NCBI RefSeq assembly: GCF_964355755.1
Contig: NC_092677.1
Span: 19,924,101 to 19,988,100, forward strand
Reading direction: 5' to 3'
DNA: 64,000 bases
Source of the DNA: Antedon mediterranea
Lineage: Eukaryota > Animalia > Echinodermata
In this document: positions 2,751 through 64,000 of the stretch, one piece after another
How the letters are laid out: each line of letters opens with the position of its first letter
Position numbering within the stretch: position 1 is the first letter of the stretch
Position numbers and translations under genes: made by a program
Notes under the pieces: model-generated
What the model was told of the DNA's origin: nothing
What the model saw: the letters and a program-made list of their open reading frames with translations, nothing else
Database searches by the model: none

Positions 2751-3266
2751 TAGGGAGGTTTCGCAATCTTACGAATACGATAACCAAAACGGATACGTCA
2801 CGCACACGTATTCGTTTTTCGTAAGCCAGTAAAAATCTGTTTCGCATGGCAACAAAATATTGAGGGCGCCGTCCGAAATATGAGTGCGGTAAATTTGAGC
2901 GAAGCGCAGGTACGTGTTGCTTGGTGCTTGGCTGCCGGCCTAGGCCTAGCGTAACATCAAAGCGAGTGAGGACTTTAAAAACTGCTATTTATCAAAATTG
3001 ACCTGGCATTTTAATAAATTAGTTTAGTAAATTACTTTCAATAAAAGTATAATTATATTATAATCATGAATCATTTCTGATTCAAATGCAAAATGTGCAA
3101 AATAGATCAAAAACTATACTCGTTTTGTAGTTACGAATATGACTGGTGATATTCGTCAACACGAATACGCTTTACGAATATGAAATGGGGATCAGCTCAA
3201 AAGTTTCACAAATGTGTGACGTATCCGTTTTCGTTATCGTATTCGTAAGGTTGCGAAAGCTCCCTA
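2751..3266. mobile_element. MITE with ~35-bp terminal inverted repeats (TIRs); possibly PIF/Harbinger-ISL2EU-like, superfamily uncertain
   Basis: TAGGGAGGTTTCGCAATCTTACGAATACGATAAC ... GTTATCGTATTCGTAAGGTTGCGAAAGCTCCCTA; inserted in the CR1 remnant. Confidence 0.75.
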
Positions 3267-3668
3267 CTATTCCTGACTTATCATCCCGCTTCTCTGGCCC
3301 CGAATTGGTTACTGTGAAATTCTCAACAGATATAAAATCTTATTTACGGCGCCTGGATATCTGCAAGTCTCCGGGACCAGATGGATTACATTCAAGAGTG
3401 CTTAAGGAACTAAGTAGTGAACTTCGCCATATTTTACAAGTTATGTTTTTAAAATTAGTGGAGAATGGAGTATTACCAAATTCGTGGAAACAAGCCAAAG
3501 TAGTGCCAATTTTTAAGAAAGGTAAAAAATCAGACCCCATAAATTACAGACCAGTCAGCCTTACATCTATAATATGCAAGACCATAAAGATGTTTGTTAG
3601 AAATGTCTTGATGAATCACATGGAAGTTAATCACCTTTTTTCCACCCATCAACATGGCTTCACTCCTT

Positions 3669-4962
3669 CAGGGAAAAATTTCATGGCAAAATTTTGAATA
3701 GCAATAATTGCCAATCAATTTGAAAATTGATTAGAAATTTCAATACATTTGTGTAGCATTTTGTTTGTGTATTTAGAAAGTTATTGTATTTTATATAACA
3801 ATTTGGTAATTACTTAAAAAGGTTGAAGTTAAAAATGTCGCACATTATCCAATGTGCAGGCCAGCAGTATACCAGTAGGCCTGATATTCTGCCCGGGCTA
3901 AGCTTAAATGAAATGTGTGTGGTGCGTCAAGGTACCCTAACTACTGTACTGAAACATGGTATGCATCCAACTAGCCTGGCTCTCATTACAGCATTGGTCG
4001 AAACCAACACATATTATTGCTTTTATTACAAGGTTGAACATATAATATGTGCAAAATGTATGTTCATACTACGAAATTTCGTTATGGATTGGAATTTATG
4101 TTTATTTAAGTAACTTGCTTCCTGGGAAAATATAGGTACTGTATGCTCACTGTGTTATGTTATTTCTGTTGGTTACACTTTGGCACACAGCATTGTTTAC
4201 CGTATTGCTTGAAAGGTGATGCATGCCCCATGATGATGGAACGATTTGCACGGCATGCATTTTGCTGCCCTCAATTATTTAAAAGTAAAAACATGCATGT
4301 CGTCGATCTTTAAAAGAATAATTATATCTCTACTACTTTTCGATGAAATAAACCAAACAACGTAAGTGACGGTTCTTGACTAAAATTTGGAGGCTTCAGA
4401 AGAGCCTGCGATGTCTAGACTAGACTATGTAGCCTTACACTAGTTTTTTATTTTTATTTTATTCAATCGAAACCAACAGCAATAATTACCGCCACTAACA
4501 GGTTTGATACAAACAAAGCCAGGACTGTTAAAAGCACCTTGATCGGTCCGAACATTGATCAAGAGCTTCTCTTGTCCAGTGCCCACCTTGACCAGAGGAA
4601 AGTCATAAGCCAATATGATGTATAAAGGCAGATACTAGATGCAGGGGTTGCCAAAAGAGTCAGCAGTGCTGATTTCAAATGCCTAACAGGACCCCAGCTC
4701 CATATAAAGCACCCTATATTCCCAGATGGTGTCCCATCCAAGCTCTAACCAGGCTCAACGTTGCTTAACTCTTAAATCTGACGAGAACCAGTGTTTCAAC
4801 GTGGTAAAGCCGTATTAAGGTACCTAGGCCTAGGTCTGGCCTATAGCTAGCCGTTGTTCATTGTTGTATCACGAAACCATGCGATCCATTTCAGTAATCG
4901 CGTAGCAATTGTTTTATTTTATGTCGCGATTTGTGATGCGATACTGGCGAAATTTTTCCCTG
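3669..4962. mobile_element. hAT-like non-autonomous element
   Basis: TIRs CAGGGAAAAATTTC / GAAATTTTTCCCTG interrupt the CR1 HGF-R codons. The TSD is degenerate. A related end occurs at ~55490-55508. Confidence 0.7.
4444..4814 (-). mobile_element. 5S rRNA-derived SINE (SINE3-like): 5S head at 4709-4814, body, A-rich tail
   Basis: The reverse strand reads TACGGCTTTACCACGTTGAAACACTGGTTCTCGTCAGA...AGTTAAGCAACG...GGTTAGAGCTTGGATGGG...CTGGGAATA, a degenerate 5S. It is followed by ~245 bp of body and AATAAAAATAAAAATAAAAA. Confidence 0.75.
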
Positions 4963-18800: not shown

Positions 18801-19139
18801 TTATTTTTAGATTTTTTTGTCTATGAAATAACGCTTATATTCCGTTTTTATTTTAGTAATTAATTTTATTAATGGTATTAATTTTGTAACATATATATAT
18901 TGTGTCTATAATAACAAAAGAATAAATGCTAGGGCCTACATGCAAGTCAGGATACATCAAAGCATGAACCAATACAAATTCACCCCTCTTTTTATACAGC
19001 AGTATATGCTCTCCGTTAGACTTGCCCCAAGTCTGTATTGTTTTTTTTTTTATTTATTTGTTTTTATTTCGACCGCGATTTTTGTCTGAAAATTACGAAA
19101 GCCTATTAGGGCCAAAAAAAAAATTATATTGCTTTCACA

Positions 19140-19677
19140 AATTCGAAATAACGAATTATTAATTCGTTTTTTCGAATTATTAATTCGTTATTTCGAATTT
19201 ATTTAAGTAATTTGAAATTTCGAATTAATAATTCGAAATTTCGAATTATTAATTCGAAATTTCGAATTATTTATTCGAAATTTCAAATTATTAATTCGAA
19301 ATTTCGAATTATTAATTCGAAATTTCGAATTATTAATTCGAAATTTCGAATTAGTAATTCGTTATTTCGAATTAATAATTCGAAATTTCGAATTAGTAAT
19401 TCGAAATTTCGAATTAGTAATTCGTTATTTCGAATTAATAATTCGAAATTTCGAATTAGTAATTCGTTATTTCGAATTAATAATTCGAAATTTCAAATTA
19501 GTAATTCGTTATTTCGAATTAATAATTCGAAATTTCAAATTAGTAATTCGTTATTTCGAATTAATAATTCGAAATTTCAAATTAGTAATTCGAAATTTCA
19601 AATTAGTAATTCGTTAATTCAAATTTTTAATTCGTTATTTCGAATTAATAATTCGAAATTTCGAATTAATAATTCGA
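19140..19677. repeat. Subterminal array of 21-bp units with palindromic core AATTCGAAATTTCGAATT (~25 units)
   Basis: Directly visible; variants include AATTCGTTATTTCGAATT and AATTCGAAATTTCAAATT. Confidence 0.95.
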
Positions 19678-19742
19678 CCTCTGCCCTTTCTAATGACATC
19701 CCAACCATCCCGGATTACTTTAGCTAATGCAATCTGGTCACC

Positions 19743-21104
19743 ATGCGTCCTGAAAACCATTGGATTAGATTATATTTCAATCGTAGCTTAAATTATCAAG
19801 AGATTATTGAAATGTTAGCAGAAGATCATGATATTTTGATAAGTAAACGGACATTAAAGCGAAGGCTGAAAAAAATGTGCCTTAGTCGAAGAAAACGGCA
19901 TTCTGACGAACTGGAAGTCGCTGCGTTCATTGAAAGCCAATTACAGACGTCAGGGATGCTACATGGGTACAGGTGGATGCACATTCGTTGCACACAAAAT
20001 GGGTTAAACATAGATAAAGAGACGGTCAGAATAATTTTAAACCTTCTTGACCCAGAGGGTGTCGAAGCAAGAAGGAGACGACGACTACACAGAAGAATTT
20101 ATCATGTACCTGGCCCAAACTATATCTGGCATATCGACTCGTACGACAAACTTAAGCCATACGGCATTTGTATAAATGGCTGTATAGACGGATACTCTAG
20201 ACACATAATATGGCTAGAAGCTTACTTTACTAGCAGCAATCCAAAAGTTATAGCCGGCTATTACGTAAATTCTGTTCGCCAAAAAATGGGTTGTCCAAAG
20301 TCTATTAGAACAGATTTCGGAACTGAAAATTCTATTGTTGGTCCAATGCAACAATTTCTTTGTAATGAGAACAGCAGTTTTATACAAGGAACAAGTCAGC
20401 ATAATCAACGAATTGAGAGTTGGTGGGGCATTCTCAGAAAACACTTTACTCAGTGTTGGATGGACGTCTTTAAACAACAAAAGAATGACGGTAGATATGA
20501 TGGAGGTCTTATAGACAAATCTTTATTACAATTTTGTTTTATGAAAATTATCCAGGTAAGCAGTACAGCAATTACATTGTGTGCTATGCATTATAGTCCC
20601 CAAGTACGACAATTATAATAATAATTTGGACTTTCGCAACAATTTGAAAAGCAAACAATATTAGCCTAGAATTAAATCACTCCTCTTTTATTTACGATAT
20701 TGTTTTTTTTTTCACGGTCTAAACTGTCATTAACTATTTGTTTTTACTGTACTGTATTATATTTGCCTTTTTTAAAGGATGAACTGGACACGGTTGCAAA
20801 TGAGTGGAATGCCCATCGCATCTCAAAATCGAGAAATAGCCATGGTCCGTTTGGACGCCCGACATTGATGTACAATGTACCATACTTATTCGGGGGACAA
20901 GAGTGTATTATTCCCGTTGATGTGGCTAAAGTTGAAGTTTGTGAAAGTGAATCCATCTTCAAAAGCCAGATTCCATGCGATAAGGACGTGTTCGACTTAT
21001 GTTCCATATTCTTGGAAGAAAAGCAGCTATCGATGCCGAAAACATGTGATGAAGGTTTGCAGTTATACAGCAGTCTTAGAAATATGTTTCTTGACGTCAT
21101 CTGA
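19743..21104 (+). CDS. IS3EU-type DDE transposase (integrase-core family), 379 aa; exons 19743-20555 and 20778-21104
   Basis: N-terminal HTH-like region (YQEIIEML...ISKRTLKRRL) and HGYRWMH. Catalytic motifs WHIDSYDKL (D), RTDFGTEN (D) and NQRIESWW (E). A phase-0 intron CAG|GTAAG ... TTTAAAG|GAT joins to DELDTVANEWNAHRI...GRP. No stops or frameshifts. Confidence 0.9.
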
Positions 21105-21427
21105 TCAAATGCCACAGCAAGCATGTGATATCACATTATCATGTTATAAATCGTTTTTTTATTAATTAATTGTCGCTGTGATATTATTTCCAATACAAAG
21201 TTAGAATTGCAACGAACACAATGTAATGAATACAATATAAACAATTATATTTATAGTATTATGTTCAGTTGGTGATGATCAGACAGAATTGTGTTATGTA
21301 GCTGTACAATACAGTAAAACAGATGTAATTTAACAACAACATTTTGTTTATTGAAATTTTAATAACAGTATTTTATTTCTGAAACAATTACAAAACTGTT
21401 GGCTACTAAAATTTGATCATAATTTAA

Positions 21428-21774
21428 AGATATATTGTCCCCCTGAAAAAATATTTTTTTAAATTGTTTTGTTGAATATGTTATTTTAATGTCACATAAT
21501 AGTTATTCACTTTCACAAAAAAATGGGTTTGAAAAAAAATTATTTACCTAAGAAAACTGTAATTTAAAGCAAATAAATGGTCAAATTGGCTGGAAGACAA
21601 TGAGTTTTGGGGTAATTTAACTGTTTAACTGTTTTGTCTTTCTATAGGTGAAATAATTTTTTTTTCTCGTTTTTTTTTCTTATGGAAACAACTTCATTAA
21701 AACTGCAAAATGGCCTATTCAAAGTCCGATTTAAAAAATCTTTATTCTTCATGATTTTGGGGGACAATACATCT
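21428..21774. mobile_element. Kolobok-type MITE inserted at the TTAA overlapping the HECT gene stop codon
   Basis: TTAA|AGATATATTGTCCCC ... GGGGACAATACATCT|TTAA. Confidence 0.82.
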
Positions 21775-24487
21775 TTAAAGTTTTCCAAAACCCTTGCCAT
21801 TTATGATGGCTTCCTCCATTAGAGTTGTGAATTCCAATGGATCGTCATATCCACGGGGGAGGTGTAAATCCAACCCACATGTACTGGCTGTCGGGTAACC
21901 TCTCATCTTTCGCTCCTTACTAAAAAAAATTATATGTATCTGGTTGCTAAAACCAAGAGGGGGAATTGAGTCAGCACCAGTAACAAATGTTAGGAAGTCT
22001 CCAAGGGATGTCTTGGTCTTTTTATCTAAAATGCATAAAAATAAAAATGTTAAACATTATGAAATAAAAAATGTATACTTTTTTTTTACCATTTACCCTT
22101 TCACCGCTCTTATTAGCATACTTTCGTTTTGGTACAAGGAATTACAAATAGGGTAGGCCTATAGCGGTATAGTTCTTCAAGGTAAAGTTTGTTCGTGAAT
22201 ACACACAACCTTGTTTCTCTCTCGAAGGGCTATATTATATAACTGTAAGGAAATACGGTATTGTATCGTTTCGTTTCGAGCCCTGGGGGTACCTAATTTT
22301 ACTTTGGATATTCATTCTCAGCCCGAAGGATGGGGGGGGGGGGGTATCTCAACACCCCTCCCTCCCCCCTGCATGTAACGCCCCATCTAGAGTTTACTTT
22401 AGTTTACATTAAAATAAAGATATAAATACTGTATACAATACCTTCCGACTCTTGTAAGAAAACCTCCAGACAATACACTGTGTCTTCCTCTTGACTTCGT
22501 AAATTGGAGCCTGCCTCTGAATATTCAACTGTCATTAGTGTCTTTAGTACTTGCCGTGTCAGTCTTTTCCCCTCCAGAGTGAAAAGTGGGACAAATTGGT
22601 TTGGGTAATCTCTTACGTTTTCCCAAAGTACTCCCAATCCTTCAGTGAACTGTCGGATTTCACTATGTGTTCTAGATTAGGAGAAAATGAATGCACCATG
22701 TAAATTATAATCACAATTAGCAAATAAAATGTGTTCACATTCATACGACCTGTACAATAATTCCAAGCCTTGATTTAAAGTTCAGCAATTTTACAGAAGA
22801 ATCACCCAGAGCAGCCGTCAACCGACAAATAAAAACCAAAGGAGAATTTCATTTGGATGGATTTCGATGGATTTTCCTTCACGATGATTTTAAATCCTAA
22901 TGCCAAAATGTTTCTCCTGTCCTGAACTAGACTTAACCCCTTGTGATTTTCCTTAAGGAAATATGCATAATGATACCGTACTATTTCTTGGATTAAAAAG
23001 GGCTAGTAACTAATTGTTTACATACATACATATCTATATCTAGTTTACCCGCGTCTAACACTGAATAACCATGTGCTTAAAATATATTATCATTATTAGG
23101 CCTGTTACGTTACCTGTAAAACAAAAAATGCTTTAACAGACTTGACACGACTTGTTGTTTTTGATTGAAATCCGAGTTATACAACGTCATGACTCCTTGA
23201 TCTGCCGCCCAATCCGATAATTCATGTGAAATAGTACGGTACTCATCCGTCGTTTGGCAATCTGGATAAAAAGATACTGTAATCAAATTCTTTACAAATA
23301 TACAAAAATTAAATACAAATTAATTGTAAGCCTATCAGGCCTACACGTGTGATAAAAGACAATGTAGGTCTACACGTTTTGCCGCGTGTATTATAGGCCT
23401 ATTAGGTTTGGGTTAAATAAGTTGATTGTGGTTACTGTAGGCCTACGTGTTTTAAAAAATAATCAGACCGTAAATAACAAAATTTATGTTTAAAAAAATG
23501 TAAAAAAAAAATTGTATTAATTTAACTTTTGCTATTTTAATAGTAAAAGTTAAATTAATAACATTTCTTGTCCCATTTAAAAATGTTATAAATAAAAAGT
23601 CCGATAGGTAACGTATAGAATATTTTAACATAACACATATTCCCATGAGTTATTTGATGCCTTGTTAGAATGGTAAACGAAAATCACTTGCCTTTGCTAT
23701 CTTGCCTCGGACATCTATGTCACACACACTATTAACGTCCGAAAATCCATTTGACTTTAACCCACACATTAGCTTGAAAAGCTTTGGTTGCGAAGTTGGT
23801 AAGCCCGGACCTCCATGCAATAGACTCCATGCAACGAAACTACCAGCCCTAGCATATTTGCGTTGCTCTAATAGCTCTATGTTATGGGTAAAATTTTGTT
23901 TCCCCACTTCTCCTTCCAGCACTCCCAACTGTTCGCAAACTGCTTTCATTAGTAGTCTATATAAATCAAAGTGCACAATAAGAATTATCAGAAAAGCGCA
24001 ACCAGTATACATTGTTTAAAATAAATATTGCTCAAAATGTTACTGTAACAATAAAATACACACATACATACATACGTGCGTATACACTGGGCATACGAAA
24101 CCAAAGATACAAAAAAATACAAAAAGTAACCAACAACGTCCAAACCAAAAAGTATGAGGGATACGCCTTTGTCATTAACTAGATTTTTTGTCTACAATTG
24201 CATTCCGGCCAGTACCCCAGCCAAGTGCGAAGGCTTGTTTCGCACGGTTCAACATCCGTCAGGGGGTATCTGGAACCCGCCGTATCTGGAACCCGCCCCC
24301 GCCTGTTACGCCACTGTATATAGTGTTAATTATAGGGAGTTTTATAAAAAAAATTATACAAATAGCACTATAGTACATTGCAAGAATAATCACCAAGTAC
24401 TAACAATATAAGACAATGTTTAGTTGAGCATGCACATAGATATCAGTAATGTGTCCAATACAGGTCCAAACCTGAACATTTCTCTTG

Positions 24488-27400
24488 TAGACAGGTTCCA
24501 TTTCTCAAAAAACGGCCTAGAAAACGAATCAAGAAGCATTTTTGGGTAGAAGCTGGGATCCACTTGATTTAGGATATTTCGACCTCGCTGATTACGAATA
24601 TGGCGGATCCCAAGCGAAATTCGGCAATCTAAGCCCTTAATTTGCATAATTAAAAATGGCGGCCATTTTTTATAATTAACCTATATCTCGAGAACCACTA
24701 GTCACAGATAATTAATTTTGGTGTCAAAATGTTTTAAATATATGTTTTTATATTCACTTTAATGACACATTTTCTCAAAAAATGGATGCAAGTCTTATTT
24801 CTGACATTTTGACCTTTGAACTTGATTTTTCGTATCTCAGTAACCAATAATCGGAGAGACACGAAATAGGGCTCAAACTGTTCAGAAACTATACATTCTT
24901 ATTTATTATAATGAAATGTTTTTACAAAAAATGGCCGATTCTACAACTATTGACCTTTGAACTATTAGTCAAATATAATAATATAAAAATAATATAACTT
25001 TGAAAATTGTGGTCTTATGAATTTTTTTTTCTTTTTAAATTGTTTAAAACATGTGTGTTTCTATCCAGTCTAATGGCATATTTTGTACAAGAATGGCCGA
25101 TAGTATGGTTATTGACCTTTTAACTACAGCATAGGCCATTGTATACTAAATATAATATAATTTCATAACTATGAAATTATTTATACACAATAATAATTAG
25201 TAAAATTATAAAATTCACTGCCATCAAATATGATGTGTTATGATTTATATAGATTAAAAAAAAAATTTGAATACGCAAGTTACATTTGTTGAAATTTGAA
25301 ATTACCTGCCATCAATATGATGGAGTATGATTATAGATTTTCTAAAATGTGAACATGTCAGCTACATTTGGAAATTACCTGCCATCAATATGATGGATTA
25401 TGATTATAGATTTAAAAAAGAATTTGAACACGTAAGCTACATTTGAAAATTACCTGCCATCAATATAATGGATTATGATTATAGATTTAAAAAAGAATTT
25501 GAACACGTCAGCTACATTTGGAAATTACCTGCCATCAATATGATGGATTATGAAAAATAATTTGAACACGTAAGCTACATTTGAAAATTACCTGCCATCA
25601 ATATGATGGATTATGATTGTATAGATTTAAAAGAAAATGTGAACACGTAAGCTACATTTGGAATGAACATGTTAAGGGCATCAGTTAAGATCATTCATGC
25701 AAAGGTTTCCGTCATCTTTAGCGTTGTTACAGCGGCATAAAGCTGTACATGGTAGTTTTGACTTCTTGCACCTACATCTATTGGTTATGCATCGTGTCTT
25801 GCATCCACAATAAATCATCTCTAACGAAGCAGTAGGAATAGCTTCATTTTTCAGAAGCACTGGTTGAAGTTTACCATTAGATAGCTCCCAACCAAAATAT
25901 GTTGGTGATGGCAAGTGCTGGATTGGCGATACAGCTTTTTTCCATACGAGTGCTTGGAAGTGTGCTCTTTTTATATGTTGGTGCACGGCATCGCTTGTGG
26001 AGGTAATGCCTCTGGTTTTTTTTGGTTAAAAGCCTAACTTCATTGGTACTTTTAACTTGACCAACACCGTAAACGTAGCAAATGAATCTTTCCGATTTCA
26101 TAATAACTTGGTCACTGATAGGTTTTCTCCCAGGTCTTTAATTTGTTCATACTTTATTTTTAATACTTCCCATGCCGATGCCTTTGAGTGACCACTTAGA
26201 TATGAGCAGTGAAGATTTAAATTACTGTATGTATGTATTAATGTAATTTAACTCTTCCCTGGATATGAGTAGTATCGCATCCACTAATAGTGTGGAATGG
26301 AATCAGTGCTTTTGTAGAACCCTCGGGCAAGGCTTGAAAAATGTCTTTTATAGATACTTTCTTTTTTTGGATGTCCCTGTCATCATCCATTTGGATACCA
26401 TGCTTTGGTAGTGAGACACTAGAATCACTAGTACGTCTGTATCCCTAGAAGCAACTACAACTGTGTCGTATCGGACATTGGCAGCATGACAAGTCTCGTG
26501 TCCGATTCTTCATGGTCTGCGACCAGAGACAACGTATTCGTGTAGACTTTTGATGATTTAACAACTGATTCTTTCATAAATCCACCAGCTGTGACAATTT
26601 CTTTGTCTATAGGAGCTTGACGAATCAACTCCTATGATAGAAATCGTGTCAGATCTGCATTATTATCTTGTAATGCCAAAAAGTTTGACCAGCAATTTGG
26701 CAGCGGTATTTCACCACTTTCTATAATTCGACGAATTGGTCTCTGTGTTTTGGTTCATCTTTGTCTGGTGGTGTCCTTTATCGACAGTTTTAAGTTAGGC
26801 ATGCCATGTTTAAAAAAAACCAGAGCCATTACCTCCAACAAGCGATGCAGTGCACCAGCATATAAAAAGAGAACACTTCCAAGCACTCGTATTGAAAAAA
26901 GCTGTATCGCCAATCCAGCATTTGCCATCACCAACAGATTTTGGGTGGGAGCTATCTAATGGTAAACTTCAACCAGTGCTTCTGAAAAAATGAAGCTATT
27001 CCTACTGCTTCGTTTTAGATGATTTATTGTGGATGCAAGACACGATGCATAACCATATAGATGTAGGTGCAAAAAGTCAAAACTACCATGTACAGCTTTA
27101 TGCTACTGTAACAACGCTACAGATGACGACGGAAACCTTAGCATGGGATGATCAAAACTGATGCCCTTAACATGTTCATTCCAAATGTAGCTTAGGTGTT
27201 CACTTTTCTTTCAAACCTATAGGCCTACAATCATAATCCATCATATTGATGGCAGGTAATTTCCAAATTTCCAAATGTAGCTGACGTGTTCAAATTGTTT
27301 TTTAATTCTATAATCATAATCAATCATATTGATGGCAGGTACTATACAATCATAATCCATCATATTGATGGCATTTAATTTCCAAATTTCCAAATGTAGC

Positions 27401-28412
27401 TGACGTGTTCAAATTCTTTTTAAAATCTATACTCATAATCCATCATATTGATGGCAGGTAATTTTCAAATGTAGCTTATGTGTTCAATTTCTTTTTTAAA
27501 TCTATAATCATAATCCATCATATTGATGGCAGGTAATTTCCAAATGTAGCTGACATGTTCACATTTAAAAAAATCTATAATCATACTCCATTATATTGAT
27601 GGCAGGTAATTTCAAATTTCAACAAATGTAACTTGCGTGTTCAATTTTTTTTTTATCTATATAAATCATAACACATCATATTTGATGGCAGTGAATTTTA
27701 TAATTTTACTAATTATTATTGTGTATAAATAATTTCATAGTTATGCAATTATATTATATTCAGTATACAGTAGGCCTATGCTGTAGTTTAAAGGTCAATA
27801 ACCATACTATCGGCCATTCTTGTACAAAATGTGCCATTAGACTGGATAGAAACACACATGTTTTAAACAATTTAAAAAGAAAAAAAAATTCATAAGACCA
27901 CAATTTTCAAAGTTATATTATTATTATATTATTATATTTGACTAATAGTTCAAAGGTCAATAGTTGTAGAATTGGCCATTTTTTGTAAAAACATTTCATT
28001 ATAATAAATAAGAATGTATAGTTTCTGAACAATTTGAGCCCTATTTCGTGTCTCTCCGATTATTGGTTACTGAGATACGATAAATCAAGGTCAAAGGTCA
28101 AAATGTCAGAAAAAAGATTTGCATCCATTTTTTGAGAAAATGTGTCATTAAAGTGAATATAAAAACATATATTTAAAACATTTTGACACCAAAATTAATT
28201 ATCTGTGACTGGTGGTTCTCGAGATATAGGGTAATTATAAAAAATGGCCGCCATTTTTAATTATGCAAATTAAGGGCTTAGATGGCCGAATTTCGCTTGG
28301 GATCCGCCATATTCGTAATCAGCGAGGTCGAAATATCCTAAATCAAGTGGATCCCAGCTTCTACCCAAAAATGCTTCTTACATCATATTTCAGAGGAAAT
28401 AGAACTTGTCTA
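24488..28412 (-). mobile_element. Academ (XPG-nuclease type) internally deleted fold-back element
   Basis: TTG|TAGACAGGTTCCATTTC ... GAAATAGAACTTGTCTA|TTG (3-bp TSD, TAG..CTA ends). Removing it restores the HECT motif GGPT-REMFR. Inverted arms are ~24531-26022 and ~26812-28379, with ~70-bp internal tandem repeats. Confidence 0.82.
25681..26800 (-). pseudogene. Academ protein C-terminal remnant (XPG/FEN-like nuclease plus Cys-rich CXC zinc finger); inverted partial copy at ~26812-27160 (+)
   Basis: Frameshifted motifs DHEESDTRL and VVASRDTDVLVIL, then HQHIKRAHFQALVW...FGW...CGCKTRCITNRCRCKKSKLPCTALCRC. Confidence 0.8.
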
Positions 28413-31293
28413 TTGTAGGTCCTCCGGTATCCATAGCTTCTTCTCCAACAAATTCGCATTGTACCTTTTTTCGGCAGTTAAAACCATCTTGCCCGTACGC
28501 GTATAGGATCGAACGTAAAAACCGTTTTCTGTGGCAAATAACCTTCTGATATTCATCAACTTGATGATGTCTCTGGTAATTGGCGAGGATGTCCTTAATT
28601 GTTATATCTACTTGATCTTCGCACCTAAAATGATATTATCAACCGTTAGTGTTGACGATAAATCATTAATGTCTTATTTGAACTGTTAAAACCATTTGGT
28701 GGGGGTAGGGTTTTGTTACCAGATAAGTTACCATCATTCACAAATTAATCAGTCGAGTCTCGTACGTAGGTGTAGTATAATGACTACAACATTCAGCCAA
28801 TTTAGGGTTTAACAGGGGGTGGGGTGGTGGAAGGTGGTGGGGGGGGGGGGGGGGGGGTTGTTCGGACACAAAACCGAACCATGAACCCCCTTGGCTACAG
28901 GCCTGTTTAAGCGTCTCCTGAAACATTTGGTACACAAACCTTGTTTCCTGGGATTCCACTAAACTATTTTTAATAGCTTGTTGTAGTTGTAAGTCTTCTT
29001 CATCGTCTGTATCGTCAGAGTCTGAACATAAATTCACATATGATGTATATGCTGACCTGTAAACAAAAATAAAATTAAAATTAAAAATCCTTAAAAGAAA
29101 GTTTATATGCATAACAGAATACTTCTCATACAAACGATCACGGGTAATGTTCGGAAAATTTTAATCGTTGTTCGTCAATCACACCTTACACAGCATTGTG
29201 GCATATTTCGAATAATAAGTTTAACTCACTCATTTTTCGATTGAGTGGATGTTGAAGGCATATGCGATTGACTTGTCGAGGCTAAATTCATCATTGAGTC
29301 AGTAGGTCTATCAGGTACCTGTAAATGGAGCAATTCATTATAATGCTGGAGTTTACTTTATGAATATTGTATTATAAGTGCACGATGAGTTATTTCACCT
29401 TTCTGAACAAGGTTATTTACTACCAGAAAAGATGGACTCGGTCTTCTGTTAATTAACAAAAATGAATCACACTAGTATATCATTGAGTTGTACCACAATT
29501 ATACAATGTATAACTTACGGGTTCCAATTACAATTTTAAATATTACCTACCTTAAACGATACGGTTGGTGTGTCGGGCTGTACAAGTGGGCGTGTTGGAT
29601 GGTCTATTTCTACCAACGGTACATCATTATCCCCGTCGTCGTCATCAGATGACTCGCCACTTCTCTTTCGTTTTACGGCTTCATCTTTTCTGCCAACTGG
29701 AGTGGTTTGAAGGTAGAACCTTAGAACTGCCATTTTGCATTCAGCATACAGCTCCCCAACGCTCATGTCTTTTTTCAAGGGATGTTGTCGAAAATCACAT
29801 AGCTTGCAGTTGAATTCGCTTAGCTTTCCTTTAAATGACAGTCCATCCTTAAAAAACAAGTTAGTGGCAATTTCTAACAGTTCATTATAATTTGTGGACT
29901 TTGGCACTATTAGCTGTCTTGTTCCTCCTCCTTTTTGTTTGCGAACTTGTTTGAAGCATTTTGATTCAGCGTCGTAGTCCAACCACCCTATATCGATTTT
30001 CCGATTTGTTTTTTGGGCATTTTTGTTCCCTAACAGCGTGCTTGAGCGCGTATCCCAAAGATTTCCGTCCTCTTCCACGTCCTCTTCATCGTCCCTTCTC
30101 TTGTTCAATTTTTGTTTGAGTTTTTGTAGAACTGTTTCTTTTTTACTTTGCGTCTTTTGTCTTTGCAAAATTCGCGTACAGCAATTCTGTCCCCAAGGAG
30201 AGGAATAAATTTCGAAAGGTCTTCGTCAGTCATGGCTACTATAACTACTGAATCAATCTGCAAAAACAAAAGTTGATTAACATCATGCATTACCGGTACA
30301 TAGTCACATTAAGGGGTCGAGTGAACGTTTCAATATATTTGATTAGGCATACCAATGATTGATCTAAACATTAAACCTTTTAAAATGTGTGCGTACTGTG
30401 TAAAACATCGTGGCATGCAAGCGACCCGTATGTGCTACGTTAAATTATGAATTAACAGATTAGGATAAATCATGTATATGTACATATATCAATGTATAAT
30501 ATGTACATAAAATTATATCAATTTTAATATTGATTAGACAAACACTACAACTATAAGGGAAACAGTTTAGAAAACTTCAATATTTGGGAAAATTACAGAT
30601 TTCACAGTACAAACCCCCTTTTTACGCCGCTTATTAGGGGGTTCACAAAAACCCTAAACATTCCCCCTCTCCCTGGATTCGCAACTAGGCGTCAACCTCA
30701 TACAACAAAGATGCAGAATAGGACTATAGGCCTATATTAATCTTATAGAGGATACAATATTTAATGACAAATATAATTACAGTATAATATTTAGTATTCC
30801 CATGATTTAAGCATCATAGACATTGTTTTTTTTACCTTTTCATCCCTCATTCTCTGTATGTACTCCTCTTCAATTCCTCGTTCCTCCATGTATTCATATA
30901 ACTTATCCATCGCCGTATCTTTCGTGAATTTAATGTAGGGCCTATGGTTTTATTCCCCAGTAGAGCTTCTTGTACCGCCAACCGAATTAAGCCCTGATGA
31001 TTGCACAAACAGACTTTGGTAAGCGAATGGCTACTTTTTTGCGTAAAAGTTGGAGGCTTCCCCACTATATTATCATGGGGTAATTCAAGTGTATAGCTAT
31101 AGCGACTTTAGCCTAGTATAAAAGTACAGTTATTGGTTAGTAATATAACATTAATGTATTCTATTTTTTAAAAACTTATTAAGATTAAATTAAGGTATGA
31201 TTAAGTGTTAATGTTAATAGCTATCCGTAATGTGTGTACTCTCCAGTAAAAAAACGGAATACACAGGGATGTGCCCTCGCTATTGAAATTTAC

Positions 31294-31546
31294 TGGGTGC
31301 TCAAAACAGAGACCTCGAAAACAAAGATCAGAAACACGAGACCCATGGGTCTCTGTTTTGGAGATTTTAAAACCAGAGACCCCCCACCCCCACCAAAAAA
31401 AAAACTTCTCGATATTACATTATTTAAGGGGTATCTGTTTTCCAGAAAATTTCGAAAACAATCGAGAAAATCTCGAAAACAGATACCCCCCTATATAACG
31501 TAATATCAAGAAGTTTTAGTGGGGGTCTCTGTTTTCGAGACACCCG
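31294..31546. mobile_element. Small MITE with an imperfect ~8-bp TSD (MULE-like)
   Basis: AAATTTAC|TGGGTGCTCAAAACAGAGACC ... GGTCTCTGTTTTCGAGACACCCG|GAATTTAC. Confidence 0.6.
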
Positions 31547-34037
31547 GAATTTACCATAACACTTGATTGTTTTTGCAATTAAATTCACGTTTTGTTTTAT
31601 ATGTATTGTTTCCCAATTACTTATACTTCTAACAGTTATGAAATGACACTGTCAAATGTAGCAAATCTGTCAAATAAAAACTTGATTTCCGACGAGATAA
31701 CACACATTTACGTGATGCGATGTATGAAATAATATGAAGCTTTCATGCCTAGTTATTTATAATCCGACAATTATTAGTGGAGATAATTTTAAAAACCGTT
31801 TAAAAACAGTGATTTTAAACAAGGTCGCGTTTCGGGATGCACAACGCGCGTGTCGCTTATTTACGGAATACAATTGATATGTGCCCCATTTGCACTCATT
31901 TAATATCCTTCATTGAAATGGGACATACCGTAACTTACATAAGGTTTCGATACTATAACTAACTAACTAAGTTTTATTATGATAAAAGAAATATAGGCCT
32001 AACTTAATATCGGTATGCACGCACATGGTTGACGTTGAGTTGTGCTAAATTACGAATAATATTATAGTATTGGAATTGATATTATCGAATGAAATTATTA
32101 AGACTAATTCATTTAAATACGTAAAATTAATCAAAGTAATATTTATTTTGAAGGATAAATATGTATACATATATTCTTTCTATTAAAGTTAATGTTAAAA
32201 CTGGTCATACAGTTATTAATTGCTGACTATTTGCCATAGTCCTACAGCGAAGCCTAAAACTTTAAACATTCAACTAAAATAATATGTTAATTCATTTTCG
32301 ATGATTGAGTTGAGTTCAACAAAAACAAAAGATAAAACGTACTTACTGAAATATAAAATATGCTGGAATTTCACTGGAACCGTAGGATAAAACAAACTAT
32401 TTATTTTGTAAGTTTGTATGAAGCAGCAATGGTGATGGAAATTAATCTTACGTATTTATAGTTTTAATAAGTAATTGCTTAACCAATCAAATTGTCGGAA
32501 AATGATGTAAACCTAACATCAATCAAATAAGACAGTGAATTGGTTTTTATCAACCCGGCACTTTTTTGGGCATGATTCATGGTTTCCCTTCCATTCCATA
32601 TTTACATTCCTCGTGGTTTATATCATGTCCCTTATATCCTTGTCTTCATTTTCCACATCCTCTAATCCATCATATGCCTATGTTTACATTCCAAAAAATG
32701 ACACTCATGGAATCACTCTAAACTTATGAGTTGATCACTTCTTGTAATGAAATAGATGCGATTTGTAATTATATAATAATAAAATAACATCAGTACGTAT
32801 ATTGTTCGTTTTACTATACTAAATCTTCAATTTTAAACTATTGTACAATTCTTGATTTAAACTGTTTTGTTTTTACTTAGATGGTCTGTGATTAGTTTTT
32901 TTTGTGTTTAAACTACACCGTACTTTATCATCTAGGAGCGTATCCGGTGGGTTGGGTGGGGGGGGGGGGGATGCTGTCGTTCCCCCTTCTTTTTTCAATA
33001 AAACAAATTGAAATTGAAATTGAAATTGAAACGGTCGGCGAATCAAAATTTCACAAACTCACATTAAGGTTGACACCCCCACCCCTCTTTATATTCATTG
33101 TTGGCTAATCTATCATCCCTTGTCATTAATTTAGAATGTTTACACTCTTATGTTTGACAATAAGGTTGAAAGTTAAGAAAGTATTGTCATATTGATTCGA
33201 ATATCAATACAGTATCAAGGGCGGGTCTACTACCTTGTCATCTGCCATTTGGCAAGTCCATGAGGGGGCGGGTCAAAGAATTTAAAATAGAAGGGGAGAG
33301 GGAGCAGAGGTAATGTTTCTCAATATGACATGTTCATTTCAACTGAGAAGCAAACAAAAAAGAGGAAGGTAAAATTTCCCGGCTATAAGATTTCAATTTC
33401 CAACAACATTTGTCATTTGGCGTCTCGGACGTAAATTGAATCCGCCCCTGAGTATTGTACGTTTTGTATACCATTTGTTTGAAAAAAGAATCCGTGTACT
33501 ATAGTAGGCCTACAGGAATTTTTTTGAAAATGGCCAAAATATCACCTTTTTACAAATACAATTATTATGCGATAATATTGCCATATGCGTATATTGTGTT
33601 ATCAACATGTTATAGAGCTATAGTTGCATTCCTCTATAATATTTTTAAATAACTGGTGCAAGACATAATCTGTCAGTCCATGGCAGTATTTTAAATATTA
33701 AATGTATCATATTATTTTCATTGACAGAATATCGTAATCCCATAAACTCGTTATGATCGATGAAATCAACGGCTAAGCTGCAACGACTTGTTGCTATTGT
33801 AATGTATCAGAGTTATATACAATTCCAATATTTAACGTTACCACACACCAACTGAGTTCAAAAATTTGCCCCACAAAAGTCCAGTAAGAAACTGACCAGA
33901 TGTTTTTCATGAATACTACTAACCAATTAGCTCTCTAAAATAACAGTTTTAGAGAACTTTCCCATCGTAAAACAATTCAAGAATGACAGTTTTTAAGTAG
34001 AGAATTGACAACGATATCCATCATTGAGATATACAAT

Positions 34038-34640
34038 TTTTCACGCTGCTGCTCTAGCCCGCTACGTCCCATTAGGACTACTCAATCAGAAGCTAAAGCA
34101 AGCAGCAGTTATAGTTCTAAGGACAGACAGTTTTGTGAAAATGGAAACTCCACTATAATTTATTGATTCCAGCTGCTACAGTAGACCCAAAAAACGTCTG
34201 GGAAAGAGTCTATTAGGACATGTCATGCTAAAATTACAAATCCCTAAGCATTTCTGGTATATTCACTGTCAGATATTCATTGAATTATTATCGAAACAGT
34301 CCATTAAAGTTTGTGTTTGTAATAGGATACTTCACAATTGAAATATCTAGGGTGATGAAGTGACCCCCAGATTTGACCTTAGCAATAAAATTAACTAAAG
34401 TGACAGAAATTGAGTATTCACTTCTGTAACAAAAAAATAATATTTATTCACATATAAAAAAAGAAAAGAAACACAAAAACCATTGTCTGACAGACAATTT
34501 AAGTATTTGTTGCTTTAAATTACATTTTTTTCAGGTAAAATAACTATTATGTGACAATAAAATGACACATTCAAAAACATTTGAAATAAAAAATATTTTT
34601 CAATATGCGAGCAGCGTTTTTTGTAAGAAATATTTCTTGT
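34038..34640 (+). repeat. Dispersed ~600-bp repeat with a near-identical inverted copy at ~61560-62157
   Basis: TTCACGCTGCTGCTCTAGCCCGCTACGTCCCATTAGGACTACTC ... GTAAGAAATATTTCTTGTT matches the reverse complement in DYNC1LI intron 6. Confidence 0.85.
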
Positions 34641-35085
34641 TCAAACTACTTTGTCTTGCCTATACCTAGATCGTGGATCAACTAGGACCAATTTTATATC
34701 TAAGCTCAAAGACGATTAATGATGACATATGCAATGAACAGAGAAGCCGATATACCCCCAGTCTCAACAGAGCCCAGAGACACCTCACTGAGCCACTTCA
34801 TCATAGGCACACCTACAGAGACACACCTCATTCACAACATCATCATCTATCATCACCGATCGACTGATACCCTGTAGTAGTATTTATCGTATCGTATCGT
34901 ATATACGAACTCAATTGCAACCAAGCGAGTAAAGTCTCAATACCGGGCTCATCAGTCTAAAACGTCTCCAATTATATTACACTATATTTAAAATTGATCC
35001 ATATGAATTTAAAAACAAATGTATGTAAAGAGGCCCTTAATCTTACTCTGGCGGACACTTTAGTTAAATACGATATTAATAATAA

Positions 35086-35737
35086 TTTTCTGAGAATGCC
35101 CCAACAACTCTCAATTCGTTGATTATGCTGACTTGTTCCTTGTATAAAACTGCTGTTCTCATTACAAAGAAATTGTTGCATTGGACCAACAATAGAATTT
35201 TCAGTTCCGAAATCTGTTCTAATAGACTTTGGACAACCCCCGGGACAACCCATTTTTTTGGCGAACAGAATTTACGTAATAGCCGGCTATAACTTTGGGA
35301 CTAGCCATATTATGTGTCTAGAGAATCCGTCATTTATACAAATGCCGTATGGCTTAAGTTTGCCGTACGAGTCGATATGCCAGATATAGTTTGGGCCAGG
35401 TACATGATAAATTCTTCTGTGTAGTCGTCGTCTCCTTCTTGCTTCGACACCCTCTGGGTCAAGAAGGCTTAAAATTATTCTGACCGTCTCTTTATCTATG
35501 TTTAACCCATTTTGTGTGCAACGAATGTGCATCCACCTGTACCCATGTAGCATCCTTGACGTCTGTAATTGGCTTCCAGTTCGTCAGACTTCGACTAAGG
35601 CACATTTTTTTCAGCCTTCGCTTTAATGTCCGTTTACTTATCAAATTATCATGATCTTCTGCTAACATTTCAATAATCTCTTGATAATTTAAGCTACGAT
35701 TGAAATATAATCTAATCCAATGGTTTTCAGGACGCAT
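35086..35737 (-). pseudogene. Inverted, truncated, frameshifted copy of the first ~700 bp of the IS3EU transposase (right arm)
   Basis: ORF fragments 35492-35737, 35287-35553 and 34972-35253 nearly match the protein from 19743 onward, with several short deletions and a 10-bp duplication. Confidence 0.92.
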
Positions 35738-35802
35738 GATGACCAGATTGCATTAGCTAAAGTCATCCGGGATGGTTGGGATGTCATTAGAAAGGGCAGA
35801 GG

Positions 35803-36257
35803 TCGAATTATTAATTCGAAATAACGAATTAAAAATTTGAATTAACGAATTACTAATTTGAAATTTCGAATTACTAATTTGAAATATCGAATTATTAATT
35901 CGAAATAACGAATTACTAATTCGAAATTTCGAATTATTAATTCGAAATTTCGAATTATTAATTCGAAATAACGAATTACTAATTCGAAATTTCGAATTAT
36001 TAATTCGAAATAACGAATTACTAATTCGAAATTTCGAATTATTAATTCGAAATTTCGAATTATTAATTCGAAATAACGAATTACTAATTCGAAATTTCGA
36101 ATTAATAATTTGAAATAACGAATAAATAATTCGAAATTTCGAATTAATAATTCGAAATTTCGAATTATTAATTCGAAATTTCAAATTACTTAAATAAATT
36201 CGAAATAACGAATTAATAATTCGAAAAAACGAATTAATAATTCGTTATTTCGAATTT
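35803..36257. repeat. Right-arm copy of the 21-bp palindromic array (~21 units)
   Basis: Mirror of 19140-19677 with a different unit number and order. Confidence 0.95.
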
Positions 36258-36381
36258 GTGAAGGCAATATTATTTTTTTGTTGGCCCTAATAGGCTTTCG
36301 TAGAAAATACATCCAAACTCAAGTAATACATACACGTATGAAACGCCATATGTGCAAAAATATTTATATTTTTACTAATAC

Positions 36382-39214: not shown

Positions 39215-39822
39215 AGTGACCCCTATTTTTAAAGAAGGTGACAAATCTGATGTAAATAATTACCGCCCAATTTCTGTCTTACCAATTGTATCTAAGATTA
39301 TTGCACGATCAAGTATTCCTATAAGTTTTTAACAAATAATAATATTTTAAACCCATCACAATCTGGTTTTAGAAAGAAATAAATACAACACTTTTAGATG
39401 TATCTGACTATATTCTAAATAATTATAATGATGGTAATGTAACTGCTGCAATATTTTTAGATTTAAAAAAAGATTTTGATACTGTTAATCACAAGTTACT
39501 TATTGCTAAACTTAAGGAAATTGGTATATGTAATGATGCCCATACAGAGCAACATGTAATGATGCCCATACAGAGCAACATGTAATGATGCCCTAAATTG
39601 GTTTACTTCATATCTAAGTTATAGATCACAAGTTGTAAATGTAAATAGTTCAATTTCTGATTTAAGAGAAATTGAAATTGGAATTCCACAGGGCTCTATT
39701 TTAGGTCCTTTGTTATTTATTATATATGTAAATTCTCTTCCTGATGCTGTTGATTGTAAATGTGTTATGTACGCTGATGATACCATTCTATTATGTAGCT
39801 CCTCAAATCCTATAACTCTGCA
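39215..39822 (+). mobile_element. L2/CR1-group LINE reverse transcriptase fragment
   Basis: VTPIFKEGDKSDVNNYRPISVLP, FLDLKKDFDTVNH, GIPQGSILGPLLFIIYVN and YADDT, with frameshifts. Confidence 0.85.
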
Positions 39823-40270
39823 AAACAGCAACCCAGCAGCTCTCGAAAAGAACTCCAGGTGGAAAAGAAGCCCACCAATGAGTACTAAAAATGAAGGAGC
39901 ACATGGGCTTCTTTTCGAGGCTTTATGGAAGTCTATTTAATGAAAAATAATGCCATGCAACTTTGTTTCTGTATTTTAAAAAGGTCCACTTGTTTAGACC
40001 TGACATTTACAACCCTGAAAATATCTCTCTTTCAAAATCAAAGAAATACAATATTTATTTTCAATTATAAAAAAAAAATAAAATATCCGTAGAGGTTCGA
40101 ACCCAGTCTACTAGAGCTGAGAGCACCCAAACCTGAGCATTACCCGTTACGCCACAAAGTAGTACATGACTGAACAGCTGATAATAGTCTATTTATTCGT
40201 GGAATTAACTCTATTCCACCGATATTAAAATCACTGATATGGCTTGAAACTAATTTTTCTTTTGCATTAA

Positions 40271-63042: not shown

Positions 63043-63178
63043 ACGGTGCTGCATTATTTTACATATCTGTAAAAGAAGAAAAGAATTGTGAATTACTCAA
63101 GAAATACCTTTTGCACAGAATATATGATTTTCCATTCAACACACCACCCTTAGTTGTTGAGAAGGAAGCCATTTTTAT
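63043..63178 (+). CDS. DYNC1LI2: Dynein light intermediate chain, exon 7 (gene continues beyond the window)
   Basis: [45 protein letters not shown]; AT|GTAATT donor. Confidence 0.92.
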
Positions 63179-64000
63179 GTAATTCACAAGCATTGATAAC
63201 CTATTCTGTTATAAGCTTATATTCCATGTTACAAAAGTAAATTGTATCTCAGAAATTGAAAACTATATATATTTATAAATAAATCTTCATTAGCTTATTT
63301 GTATGGTATGCAAATAGAAGAGAAACAGAAAAAAAAATATTAGTAAATTCCAAATTCCAAATAAGAGTTATGTTTACTGTAAATAATTAATAGAAAAATA
63401 ATGCTTAAAAAAGAAAGATGTTTCGACTCCACTGGGTCATTCTCAAATACAATGAACAGAGAATTCTTTCCTGAATTTTAAGGATAAACACTAAAAAAGG
63501 GCAACAAACAACAGTAATGTGACGTGTCAGCGACCATGTTATGTCACTGTATAAACTATGCAACCTCCTCTGTTGTGTACCGCCATGGCCGGATCTACAA
63601 ATACCATGTTGGGCCGCCAAATTAAAACAGGGTTTAGTCTCGGCAGGCAGTCAACCGTATCGAATGATCGCGTCGTTAAGTTTGAATTGAAAATACACCT
63701 ATCCTTTGAACAGAATGATTTTTGTAAATCACGGTTTGGCTCAGTGAGTAAAACTCTGTGACAATTGATATCAATGCTTATAGTTGTTCGAGTTCGAATC
63801 CGTGATATGTGTAAATAATAAGTATCACCGCTTAAAGCAAAAAATCAAAACTAGACCACAAAACTATCAAAAAAGATACCAAACCTCACACACAAAATTG
63901 CAAAGTATAAAAAAAACCATTTAAATAAAAAAAAATGTAAATATATGAATAAACACACAAAACGATTCCAATATTGAACATAAAACTTAACAATTCGATT

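What the first reader, a model, noticed from the sequence alone, without database searches (positions are those of the whole stretch)
19094..36302. 17-kb IS3-like eukaryotic transposon that carries its own multi-exon HECT E3 ubiquitin ligase
Seen: a perfect 6-bp TSD (GAAAAT) and TAC...GTA termini bound the whole unit. Inside are an intact spliced 379-aa DDE transposase (+) and a convergent ~9-exon gene (-) whose C-terminus is a HECT domain (GEEAMDTGGP-RE, FVTG...PPLGF, PTASTC, terminal GFGKL). Known: TAY..RTA ends, 6-bp TSDs and a second convergent gene characterise IS3EU elements, and as far as I recall that second gene is poorly characterised. Inference: the partner gene is a mobile ubiquitin ligase, giving a two-gene transposase + E3 module. 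It might degrade host silencing factors or regulate the transpososome. Some 'G2E3-like' gene expansions in animal annotations could be such transposon cargo.
Basis: partly seen in the sequence, partly recalled or inferred. Interest (0 to 1): 0.92.

Follow-up and report, generated by a model that had tools for sequence, protein, structure and literature searches.

The report
IS3EU transposon with own ubiquitin ligase
This 17-kb jumping gene, probably from a feather star, carries a ubiquitin-ligase gene facing its transposase gene; the ligase gene is broken in this copy, sits in the same place in many related elements, and likely tags the element's own transposase for removal.

Summary
The element is real: 6-bp target duplication, TAC..GTA ends, an intact 379-aa IS3EU transposase and a convergent 9-exon HECT gene. 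Corrections: the HECT gene is broken here by a frameshift and a 3.9-kb nested transposon inside exon 5. Contigs of another sample lack both lesions. The terminal repeats run about 1.3 kb and include an inverted piece of the transposase gene.

The pairing is a family trait. A HECT gene lies downstream on the opposite strand in 24 of 80 related loci, 22 of 36 with at least 2 kb to look in, and in no other arrangement. All 23 aligned copies keep the catalytic cysteine. The partner protein is SAM-like, ubiquitin-like, UIM or UBX, then HECT.

Likely mechanism (inferred): the ligase turns over or dismantles its own transposase. A complex prediction gave only weak support. Degrading host silencing factors is the main rival.

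I found no paper on the pairing, but could not see Repbase entries. This scan noted the same pairing before on other DNA (8 notes).

The parts
19088..19093 (+). left copy of the 6-bp target-site duplication GAAAAT
19094..20441 (+). left arm of the long terminal inverted repeat: 47-bp terminus starting TAC, 21-bp tandem array (19140-19677, about 25 copies), then the 5' region of the transposase gene
19743..21104 (+). intact DDE transposase gene, exons 19743-20555 and 20778-21104, 379 aa, triad D132-D191-E225; identical to RefSeq XP_071959525.1 of Antedon mediterranea
21775..22025 (-). HECT gene exon 9: C-lobe with catalytic Cys (PTASTC) and Phe at -4
22442..22671 (-). HECT gene exon 8
   Evidence: spliced joints in run X5
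23114..23261 (-). HECT gene exon 7 (its start differs by small indels from the spliced contig of run X5; boundary uncertain)
23688..23956 (-). HECT gene exon 6 (the spliced contig leaves at 23692, which fits a GC donor)
24472..24484 (-). 3' remainder of HECT gene exon 5, beyond the nested insertion
24488..28412 (.). nested 3,925-bp non-autonomous DNA transposon (TAGAC..GTCTA ends, 3-bp duplication, about 1.5-kb inverted arms, decayed Cys-rich ORF); Academ-like by recalled features only; breaks exon 5
   Evidence: absent from contigs of runs X1 and X5
28413..28624 (-). 5' part of HECT gene exon 5 (start of the HECT N-lobe, GEEAMDTGGP motif)
28940..29056 (-). HECT gene exon 4, with a UIM-like acidic helix (by inspection; no Pfam hit)
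   Evidence: one spliced joint over intron 4
29230..29318 (-). HECT gene exon 3 (low-complexity linker; predicted from splice sites and phase only)
29551..30257 (-). HECT gene exon 2: end of the SAM-like domain and a ubiquitin-like beta-grasp domain; frameshifted in this copy near 30150-30160
30836..30910 (-). HECT gene exon 1 (start of the SAM-like domain)
35086..36302 (-). right arm of the terminal inverted repeat: decayed inverted copy of the 5' transposase region (10 mismatches in 708 aligned bases, four deletions, one insertion), 21-bp array 35803-36256, terminus ending GTA
36303..36308 (+). right copy of the target-site duplication GAAAAT

Best explanation
This is an IS3EU cut-and-paste transposon whose second gene, a HECT ubiquitin ligase, is a standing part of the element family, and the ligase likely acts on the element's own transposase. 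Shown: ends, duplication, both genes, the two lesions in this copy, the recurrence of the convergent pair, and the conserved cysteine. Predicted: the ligase's N-terminal domain has a ubiquitin-like fold and may dock on the transposase. Inferred: HECT then ubiquitylates the bound transposase, and the UIM (this subfamily) or UBX (others) hands it to p97 or the proteasome, which clears the stable complex left after integration or caps the transposase level. This copy supplies only transposase; intact sister copies would supply the ligase in trans. The confidence given is for the transposase-as-target step; that the ligase belongs to the family I put at about 0.95.
For: HECT C-lobe downstream on the opposite strand in 24 of 80 loci (22 of 69 clusters at 90% transposase identity), 22 of 36 with at least 2 kb downstream, 10 of 12 with at least 5 kb, 0 in other arrangements. 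Pfam PF00632 independently hit 23 loci, 19 above its cut-off. Cys kept in 23 of 23 aligned. dN/dS 0.05 and 0.07 in the two unsaturated HECT pairs of 9 (101 and 53 codons). Inverted tandem arrays enclose both genes in L016, L028, L047 and L058; TAC-type termini like the window's in L016, L028, L047, L079. HECT type follows the transposase tree: 3 changes against 7.5 shuffled, 0 of 500 shuffles as low. Spliced joints over three HECT introns in run X5. Beta-grasp fold at pLDDT about 96; UBX in L046 and L047, weaker in L049. Complex of transposase with that domain: weak support, score 0.56, best of 3 controls 0.00, contacts agree at least 74%, partner pLDDT at least 73; the mark was reached by 51 of 78 solved and 2 of 108 mismatched pairs, but at 0.60 or under by only 5 of 78 solved and all 4 passing mismatches of 180; on eukaryotes 39 of 65 solved and 2 of 126 unrelated pairs.
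Against: No substrate or ligase activity was measured. A pass at 0.56 is, by the tool's own counts, more often wrong than right unless the guess was likely beforehand, and no interface was given. 14 of 36 loci with at least 2 kb downstream, and 2 of 12 with at least 5 kb (L035, L053), showed no HECT. Fungal IS3EU are reported with an alpha-kinase and TET/JBP gene instead (PMC12730594, passages), so HECT is not universal and the second gene may be counter-silencing cargo. L016 and L028 carry the HECT type of the other transposase clade, so the catalytic half can be swapped. The tree clustering is partly kinship; starred branches force only 1 change. No second locus had both ends, so no second target duplication was seen.
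Confidence: 0.42

Rival explanations
1. The ligase is a counter-silencing effector: SAM-like and ubiquitin-like domains bind a host chromatin or small-RNA silencing protein (for example a Polycomb PRC1 subunit), which the HECT domain marks for destruction, so the element stays expressed.
For: Fungal IS3EU carry TET/JBP genes proposed to counter methylation silencing (PMC12730594, abstract and passages). The top fold matches of the N-terminal domain include Polycomb ubiquitin-like domains (5fr6 Z 9.3, rmsd 2.3, 80 aligned; 3gs2 Z 8.5, rmsd 2.9, 90 aligned), and SAM domains also occur in PRC1 (recalled). Spliced HECT joints exist in run X5 while a contig crosses the transposase intron unspliced, which fits a ligase made apart from the transposase; contigs cannot rank expression.
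Against: The Polycomb matches tie within 1 Z unit with ATG5, USP11 and ATG8, at 10-14% identity, so only the beta-grasp fold is shown. The same N-terminal domain is kept across echinoderms, molluscs and fish rather than tracking one host's silencing machinery. Weak predicted binding to the transposase.
Confidence: 0.3
2. The protein is a scaffold or ubiquitin-binding adaptor with little or no ligase activity, as reported for the HECT domain of mammalian G2E3.
For: Human and mouse G2E3 HECT is described as non-functional, and its 'GL-Metazoa' relatives as extremely divergent (PMC3673628, passages). The window's exons 5, 6 and 8 had no Pfam hit alone; identity to solved HECTs is 11-17% for a relative's model.
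Against: Cys kept in 23 of 23 C-lobes of two divergent types; a full bilobed HECT fold in relative P0123 (Foldseek E 1e-10 to UBR5 and HUWE1); purifying selection on the C-lobe.
Confidence: 0.1
3. The ligase is kept because it helps the host (for example in immunity or stress), and the transposon merely spreads it; the abundant spliced transcript comes from a domesticated copy.
For: The spliced contigs of run X5 match exons 7-9 at depths of 369-647, whereas exons 1-6 are covered by contigs at depths of 2-15, mostly unspliced, so the spliced message comes from another locus that shares only the 3' exons. Many relatives are annotated as full-length genes.
Against: Fixed tail-to-tail position beside a transposase in 24 of 24 hits; multiple near-identical copies per genome on different contigs; dN/dS like that of the transposase in the same pair (0.05 and 0.08).
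Confidence: 0.12
4. One-off capture of a host HECT gene by this copy (Pack-type transduplication).
For: GingerRoot elements often carry host gene fragments (22 of 77; PMC6839031, passages). The gene is broken in this copy.
Against: Same pair, same orientation, in 22 transposase clusters (median pairwise identity of all 80 transposases 46%); lesions absent from other copies.
Confidence: 0.02

Closest known systems
IS3EU / GingerRoot superfamily of DNA transposons (Repbase; Kojima and Bao 2023, PMC10045372; Cerbin et al. 2019, PMC6839031)
   Same: TA..TA termini, 6-bp duplication, integrase-like DDE core with the same motifs as IS3EU-1_DR1p and IS3EU-1_CGi_2p, two encoded proteins (PMC10853768 legend).
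   Different: The second protein is here identified as SAM-like + ubiquitin-like + UIM/UBX + HECT; the passages and supplements I searched do not mention HECT. Inverted arms of 1.2-1.35 kb that include part of the transposase gene, against 100-150 bp in GingerRoot. Repbase entries themselves were not visible and may already name the domain.
TET-carrying IS3EU of rust fungi and truffle (Kojima 2025, PMC12730594)
   Same: Same superfamily; a second enzyme gene in the orientation opposite to the transposase.
   Different: Their partner is an alpha-kinase plus TET/JBP dioxygenase, not a HECT ligase.
RAG1 / Chapaev RING-bearing transposases (Kapitonov and Koonin 2015, PMC4411706)
   Same: A ubiquitin ligase tied to a DDE transposase; RAG1 autoubiquitylation is cited there.
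   Different: RING fused to the transposase; here a separate convergent gene with a HECT domain.
Class IV divergent HECTs: G2E3 and 'GL-Metazoa' (Grau-Bove et al. 2013, PMC3673628)
   Same: Highly divergent animal HECT domains with varied N-termini.
   Different: No PHD/RING fingers here; that paper's main text has no word beginning 'transpos'. Whether GL-Metazoa are these transposon genes was not tested.
ClpX remodelling of the MuA transpososome (recalled, no call)
   Same: Functional model: an unfoldase pathway removes transposase after strand transfer.
   Different: ClpX is a host protein that reads a tag on MuA; here the element would encode its own tagging enzyme. Analogy only.

Membership tests
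IS3EU/GingerRoot | TA..TA termini with inverted repeats | tested here: met
   TAC..GTA, 44 of 47 terminal bases complementary; definition from PMC10045372
IS3EU/GingerRoot | 6-bp target-site duplication | tested here: met
   GAAAAT on both sides
IS3EU/GingerRoot | DDE core like that of Repbase IS3EU transposases | tested here: met
   Motifs around all three acidic residues match IS3EU-1_DR1p and IS3EU-1_CGi_2p as printed from the paper's supplement (compared by eye); PF24764
IS3EU/GingerRoot | No HHCC zinc motif before the core | tested here: met
   No conserved HHCC in alignment A1; weak helix-turn-helix-type hits at residues 9-52
IS3EU/GingerRoot | Falls in the IS3EU/GingerRoot clade in a tree with reference sequences | not tested
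   Reference sequences were seen only as paper text; my tree holds no references
HECT E3 ligases (PF00632) | C-terminal C-lobe with catalytic Cys and Phe near -4 | tested here: met
   PF00632 46.2 bits against cut-off 23.9; Cys aligns with HERC6 and AREL1; ends GFGKL
HECT E3 ligases (PF00632) | Complete N-lobe, about 350-residue bilobed domain | tested here: inconclusive
   Shown by fold for relative P0123 of the other HECT type; for the window only by length (314 aa from the N-lobe motif to the end) and motif; exons 5, 6, 8 alone had no Pfam hit
HECT E3 ligases (PF00632) | Forms a ubiquitin thioester and transfers ubiquitin | not testable with these tools
   needs a bench assay
G2E3 family | N-terminal PHD/RING-like zinc fingers | tested here: not met
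   Gene model has SAM-like, beta-grasp and UIM-like parts, no such fingers
G2E3 family | HECT groups with G2E3 in a tree | not tested
   No G2E3 sequence was available; for P0121, structural likeness to G2E3 (TM 0.43) is no higher than to HERC3 (0.41)
Academ (nested element) | 3-4-bp duplication, TAG-type termini, Cys-rich transposase C-terminus (features recalled, not from a call) | tested here: inconclusive
   3-bp duplication and TAGAC ends seen; PF03638 CXC only at E 0.036; no comparison with a reference Academ

The most novel reading that the evidence does not exclude
Animal IS3EU transposons are two-gene machines that encode their own transpososome-disassembly enzyme: a HECT ligase that docks on the transposase through a ubiquitin-like domain and, through UIM or UBX modules, feeds it to p97, a self-encoded eukaryotic counterpart of ClpX in Mu transposition. 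Many multi-copy 'HECT domain-containing' and 'G2E3-like' genes in aquatic animal annotations would then be transposon genes.
Probability: 0.25. Interest if true: 0.85.

Novelty: new variant of a known kind. Interest (0 to 1): 0.6.

Why it matters
It names the second gene of animal IS3EU elements, a group described in 2025 as largely unexplored in structure and function (PMC11934779, passage). It offers a two-protein system in which to ask how eukaryotic DDE transposases are removed after integration, or how a transposon disarms host silencing with ubiquitin. It also warns that HECT gene counts in fish, mollusc and echinoderm annotations may include transposon cargo.

Tried and rejected
No whole genome was held, so copy number, an empty insertion site and pairing at other loci of this genome were not measured. 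Viral contigs: 25 pattern matches, 0 relatives. The search for named relatives of the window's own HECT type never ran, so the 'G2E3-like' claim rests on one Atlas cluster at score 0.76, a lead only. No RNA holder was listed; X5 is a guess. Runs X6 and X7 (organism B) cover the transposase region but not the HECT exons at 85-90% likeness; a gap in contigs proves nothing. Contig depths were not used as copy numbers or expression ranks. No locus held both termini, so no second duplication; a terminal-motif pattern hit 1 of 80 loci. Locus-tag adjacency of transposase and HECT in annotated genomes could not be shown, since the two protein searches gave different species or unlinked tags. 7 of 9 HECT pairs were saturated for dS. 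The apparent inverted repeat of L039 is a 229-bp inverted duplicate at the contig end and was not counted. Exon 7 indels against the X5 contig could not be resolved because the tables were cut. Kojima's 2019 review was not held. Polycomb-specific identity of the N-terminal domain was rejected as a tie.
Full report
OBSERVATION. The unit runs from 19094 to 36302 (17,209 bp). GAAAAT lies directly outside both ends, which read TAC...GTA; that 6-mer has a chance of 6.6e-4 at a fixed place, and 44 of the first 47 bases are complementary. Each arm holds a 21-bp tandem array and about 700 bases of the 5' transposase region; the right-hand copy differs at 10 of 708 aligned bases but has four deletions and one insertion. 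Contigs of runs X1 and X5 both break at 20422, near the inner end of this arm, which suggests that the long arm is shared by other copies.

TRANSPOSASE. Two exons splice GT-AG to 379 aa, with an integrase core (PF24764, E 1.5e-35) and invariant D132, D191 and E225 in 28 aligned sequences. The protein is identical to RefSeq XP_071959525.1 of the feather star Antedon mediterranea, so the window very likely comes from that species. Two more annotated copies at 96% and 98% lie on other contigs. 1,749 of 1,892 candidates were relatives; named ones come from echinoderms, molluscs, fish and a beetle. The core motifs match Repbase IS3EU-1_DR1p and IS3EU-1_CGi_2p as printed in the supplement of PMC10045372 (by eye).

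SECOND GENE. Nine minus-strand exons with canonical splice sites and consistent phases give about 700 aa. The last exon is a HECT C-lobe (PF00632, E 6e-12) whose cysteine aligns with those of HERC6 and AREL1. The gene is broken twice in this copy: a frameshift in exon 2, and a 3,925-bp nested element with a 3-bp duplication inside exon 5, which stops the frame after GGPT. A contig of run X1 (depth 142 of 142 at that place) has 7 more bases at the frameshift, and contigs of X1 and X5 run from exon 5 straight into its 3' remainder without the insert (loose letters and mismatches checked). Both lesions therefore look specific to this copy. Run X5, guessed to be RNA, has joints over introns 6, 7 and 8 that the listed rows show at depth 0 in the three other runs (230 further rows not shown) and one joint over intron 4 at depth 2.9. 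These spliced contigs match exons 7-9 but differ by substitutions and small indels, and exons 1-6 are covered only by low-depth, mostly unspliced contigs. So a related copy is spliced; which one is unknown, and contigs cannot rank expression.

DOMAINS. Exons 1-2 match a SAM-like start (PF18016 only at E 0.02-0.03 in relatives; SAM-named Atlas clusters). The next 110 residues fold confidently (pLDDT 93-98) as a ubiquitin-like beta-grasp: best Z 9.3 to a Polycomb ubiquitin-like domain (rmsd 2.3, 80 aligned), tied with ATG5, Ring1B and USP11 (Foldseek agrees). Exon 4 has a UIM-like helix by inspection only. The same N-terminal domain heads HECT proteins of a sea star, a scallop and fish, several of them multi-copy within a genome, and partner genes in L016, L028, L041, L046, L047 and L079; L046 and L047 have a UBX domain in the linker. 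A model of relative P0123 matches whole HECT domains (UBR5, HUWE1; E about 1e-10).

IS THE PAIR A FAMILY TRAIT? A metagenome scan (35 of 64 parts read; 594 pattern matches, 424 confirmed, best 80 kept) gave 80 loci in 69 clusters at 90% identity. I sent 139 minus-strand ORFs to Pfam: 135 of the 217 listed (dropping all 21 of L008, a near-duplicate of L007, and others that mostly overlap transposase or already-hit frames) plus 4 added. PF00632 hit 23 loci, 19 above its cut-off. A profile built from those 23 and the window, run over all six frames of all 80 loci, found HECT in 24 of 80, 22 of 36 with at least 2 kb downstream of transposase exon 1, and 10 of 12 with at least 5 kb; all 24 were downstream and on the opposite strand. 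The profile is circular for the 23, but not for orientation. Upstream DNA was scarcer (66 kb against 212 kb). Against: 14 of 36 and 2 of 12 had none; the gap to the last HECT exon ranges from 0.6 to 6.6 kb, so some negatives may be cut short. All 23 aligned C-lobes keep the cysteine. Inverted tandem arrays enclose both genes in L016, L028, L047 and L058, and single termini resemble the window's in L016, L028, L047 and L079; none had both ends. dN/dS was 0.05 (10 synonymous, 2 non-synonymous) and 0.07 (8, 2) in the two usable HECT pairs of 9, and 0.08 for the transposase of the first pair. Two HECT types occur. On a tree of 24 transposases (the 23 plus the window; 57 loci left out), all 9 of the window's type sit in one clade (100/99) with 2 of the other type, and 13 of the other type form the second; 3 changes against 7.5 shuffled. 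Kinship inflates this, so it shows long association with some swaps, not co-evolution.

MECHANISM. Shown: a conserved convergent ligase gene with its catalytic residue. Predicted: transposase and beta-grasp domain gave weak support, 0.56 against a best control of 0.00 (three runs, contacts agree at least 74%, partner pLDDT at least 73). By the tool's counts 51 of 78 solved and 2 of 108 mismatched pairs reach the mark, but at 0.60 or under only 5 of 78 solved pairs and all 4 passing mismatches; on eukaryotes 39 of 65 and 2 of 126. Inferred: the ligase ubiquitylates its transposase, and UIM or UBX links it to p97 or the proteasome, as ClpX clears MuA (recalled). I put this at 0.42, counter-silencing at 0.30, host benefit at 0.12, inactive scaffold at 0.10 and one-off capture at 0.02.

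LITERATURE. Searches: 'IS3EU' (62 papers, 40 listed); 'HECT transposon transposase' (190, 40 listed, none on topic by title); 'IS3EU' with 'HECT' anywhere (2 papers: in PMC3520738 the hit is inside 'trophectoderm'; PMC8965078 seen as a listing only); 'HECT domain' with 'terminal inverted repeats' and 'DNA transposon' (0); also (listings). Passages read: PMC10045372, PMC12730594, PMC11934779, PMC6839031, PMC10853768 (HECT count 0 in each main text), PMC9587614 ('ubiquitin' 0), PMC3673628, PMC2837046, PMC4411706 and PMC3520738. Supplements searched: PMC12730594 and PMC10045372, HECT 0 in both. PMC3520738 reports a 2012 talk on DNA transposons with host-derived proteins that may regulate transposition, so the general idea is in print. 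Repbase entries, subscription papers and Kojima's 2019 review were not visible; Repbase protein names ending 1p and 2p show that a second protein is annotated, and it may already be called HECT there. The scan's notes list 8 similar findings in other genomes and none for this genome or this N-terminal sequence; they are unchecked and are not counted as support.

VERDICT. A real IS3EU element with a dead copy of a family-wide HECT partner gene. Known superfamily, partner identity not found in print, mechanism open and testable. Interest 0.6.

Noticed in passing
window 24488-28412: Nested non-autonomous element with 1.5-kb inverted arms that include internal 75-bp tandem repeats and an inverted piece of its own decayed ORF, the same 'arm swallows the gene' build as the host element; very deep in all runs laid.
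   Followed up: partly
window 35086-35750: The right arm holds an inward-pointing, decayed copy of the 5' transposase region on the same strand as the HECT gene; it could supply the HECT promoter or let read-through RNA fold back.
   Followed up: partly
window 34038-34641 and 61558-62157: A 600-bp repeat (96% identical, inverted) lies once inside the element and once outside; probably another nested mobile element.
   Followed up: no
window 21775-23261, run X5: Spliced contigs match only exons 7-9, so copies with the same HECT C-terminal half and a different 5' half may exist in this species.
   Followed up: partly
L046:3225-4889, L047:5939-7261, L049:5360-5920: Partner genes carry an acidic helix followed by a UBX domain between the ubiquitin-like domain and HECT.
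   Followed up: partly
protein cluster of P0127: 23 members at about 90% identity span several cyprinodontiform genera and Menidia, with several loci per genome; either strong conservation or horizontal transfer.
   Followed up: no
window 62808-63182 (+): Exon of a dynein light intermediate chain gene (PF05783, E 4e-18); the only host-gene exon among the long ORFs scanned.
   Followed up: no
window 3143-3697, 39563-39940, 62525-62965: Reverse transcriptase fragments of decayed retroelements.
   Followed up: no
L010:2893-3485: Mariner-type transposase fragments downstream of the IS3EU transposase.
   Followed up: no
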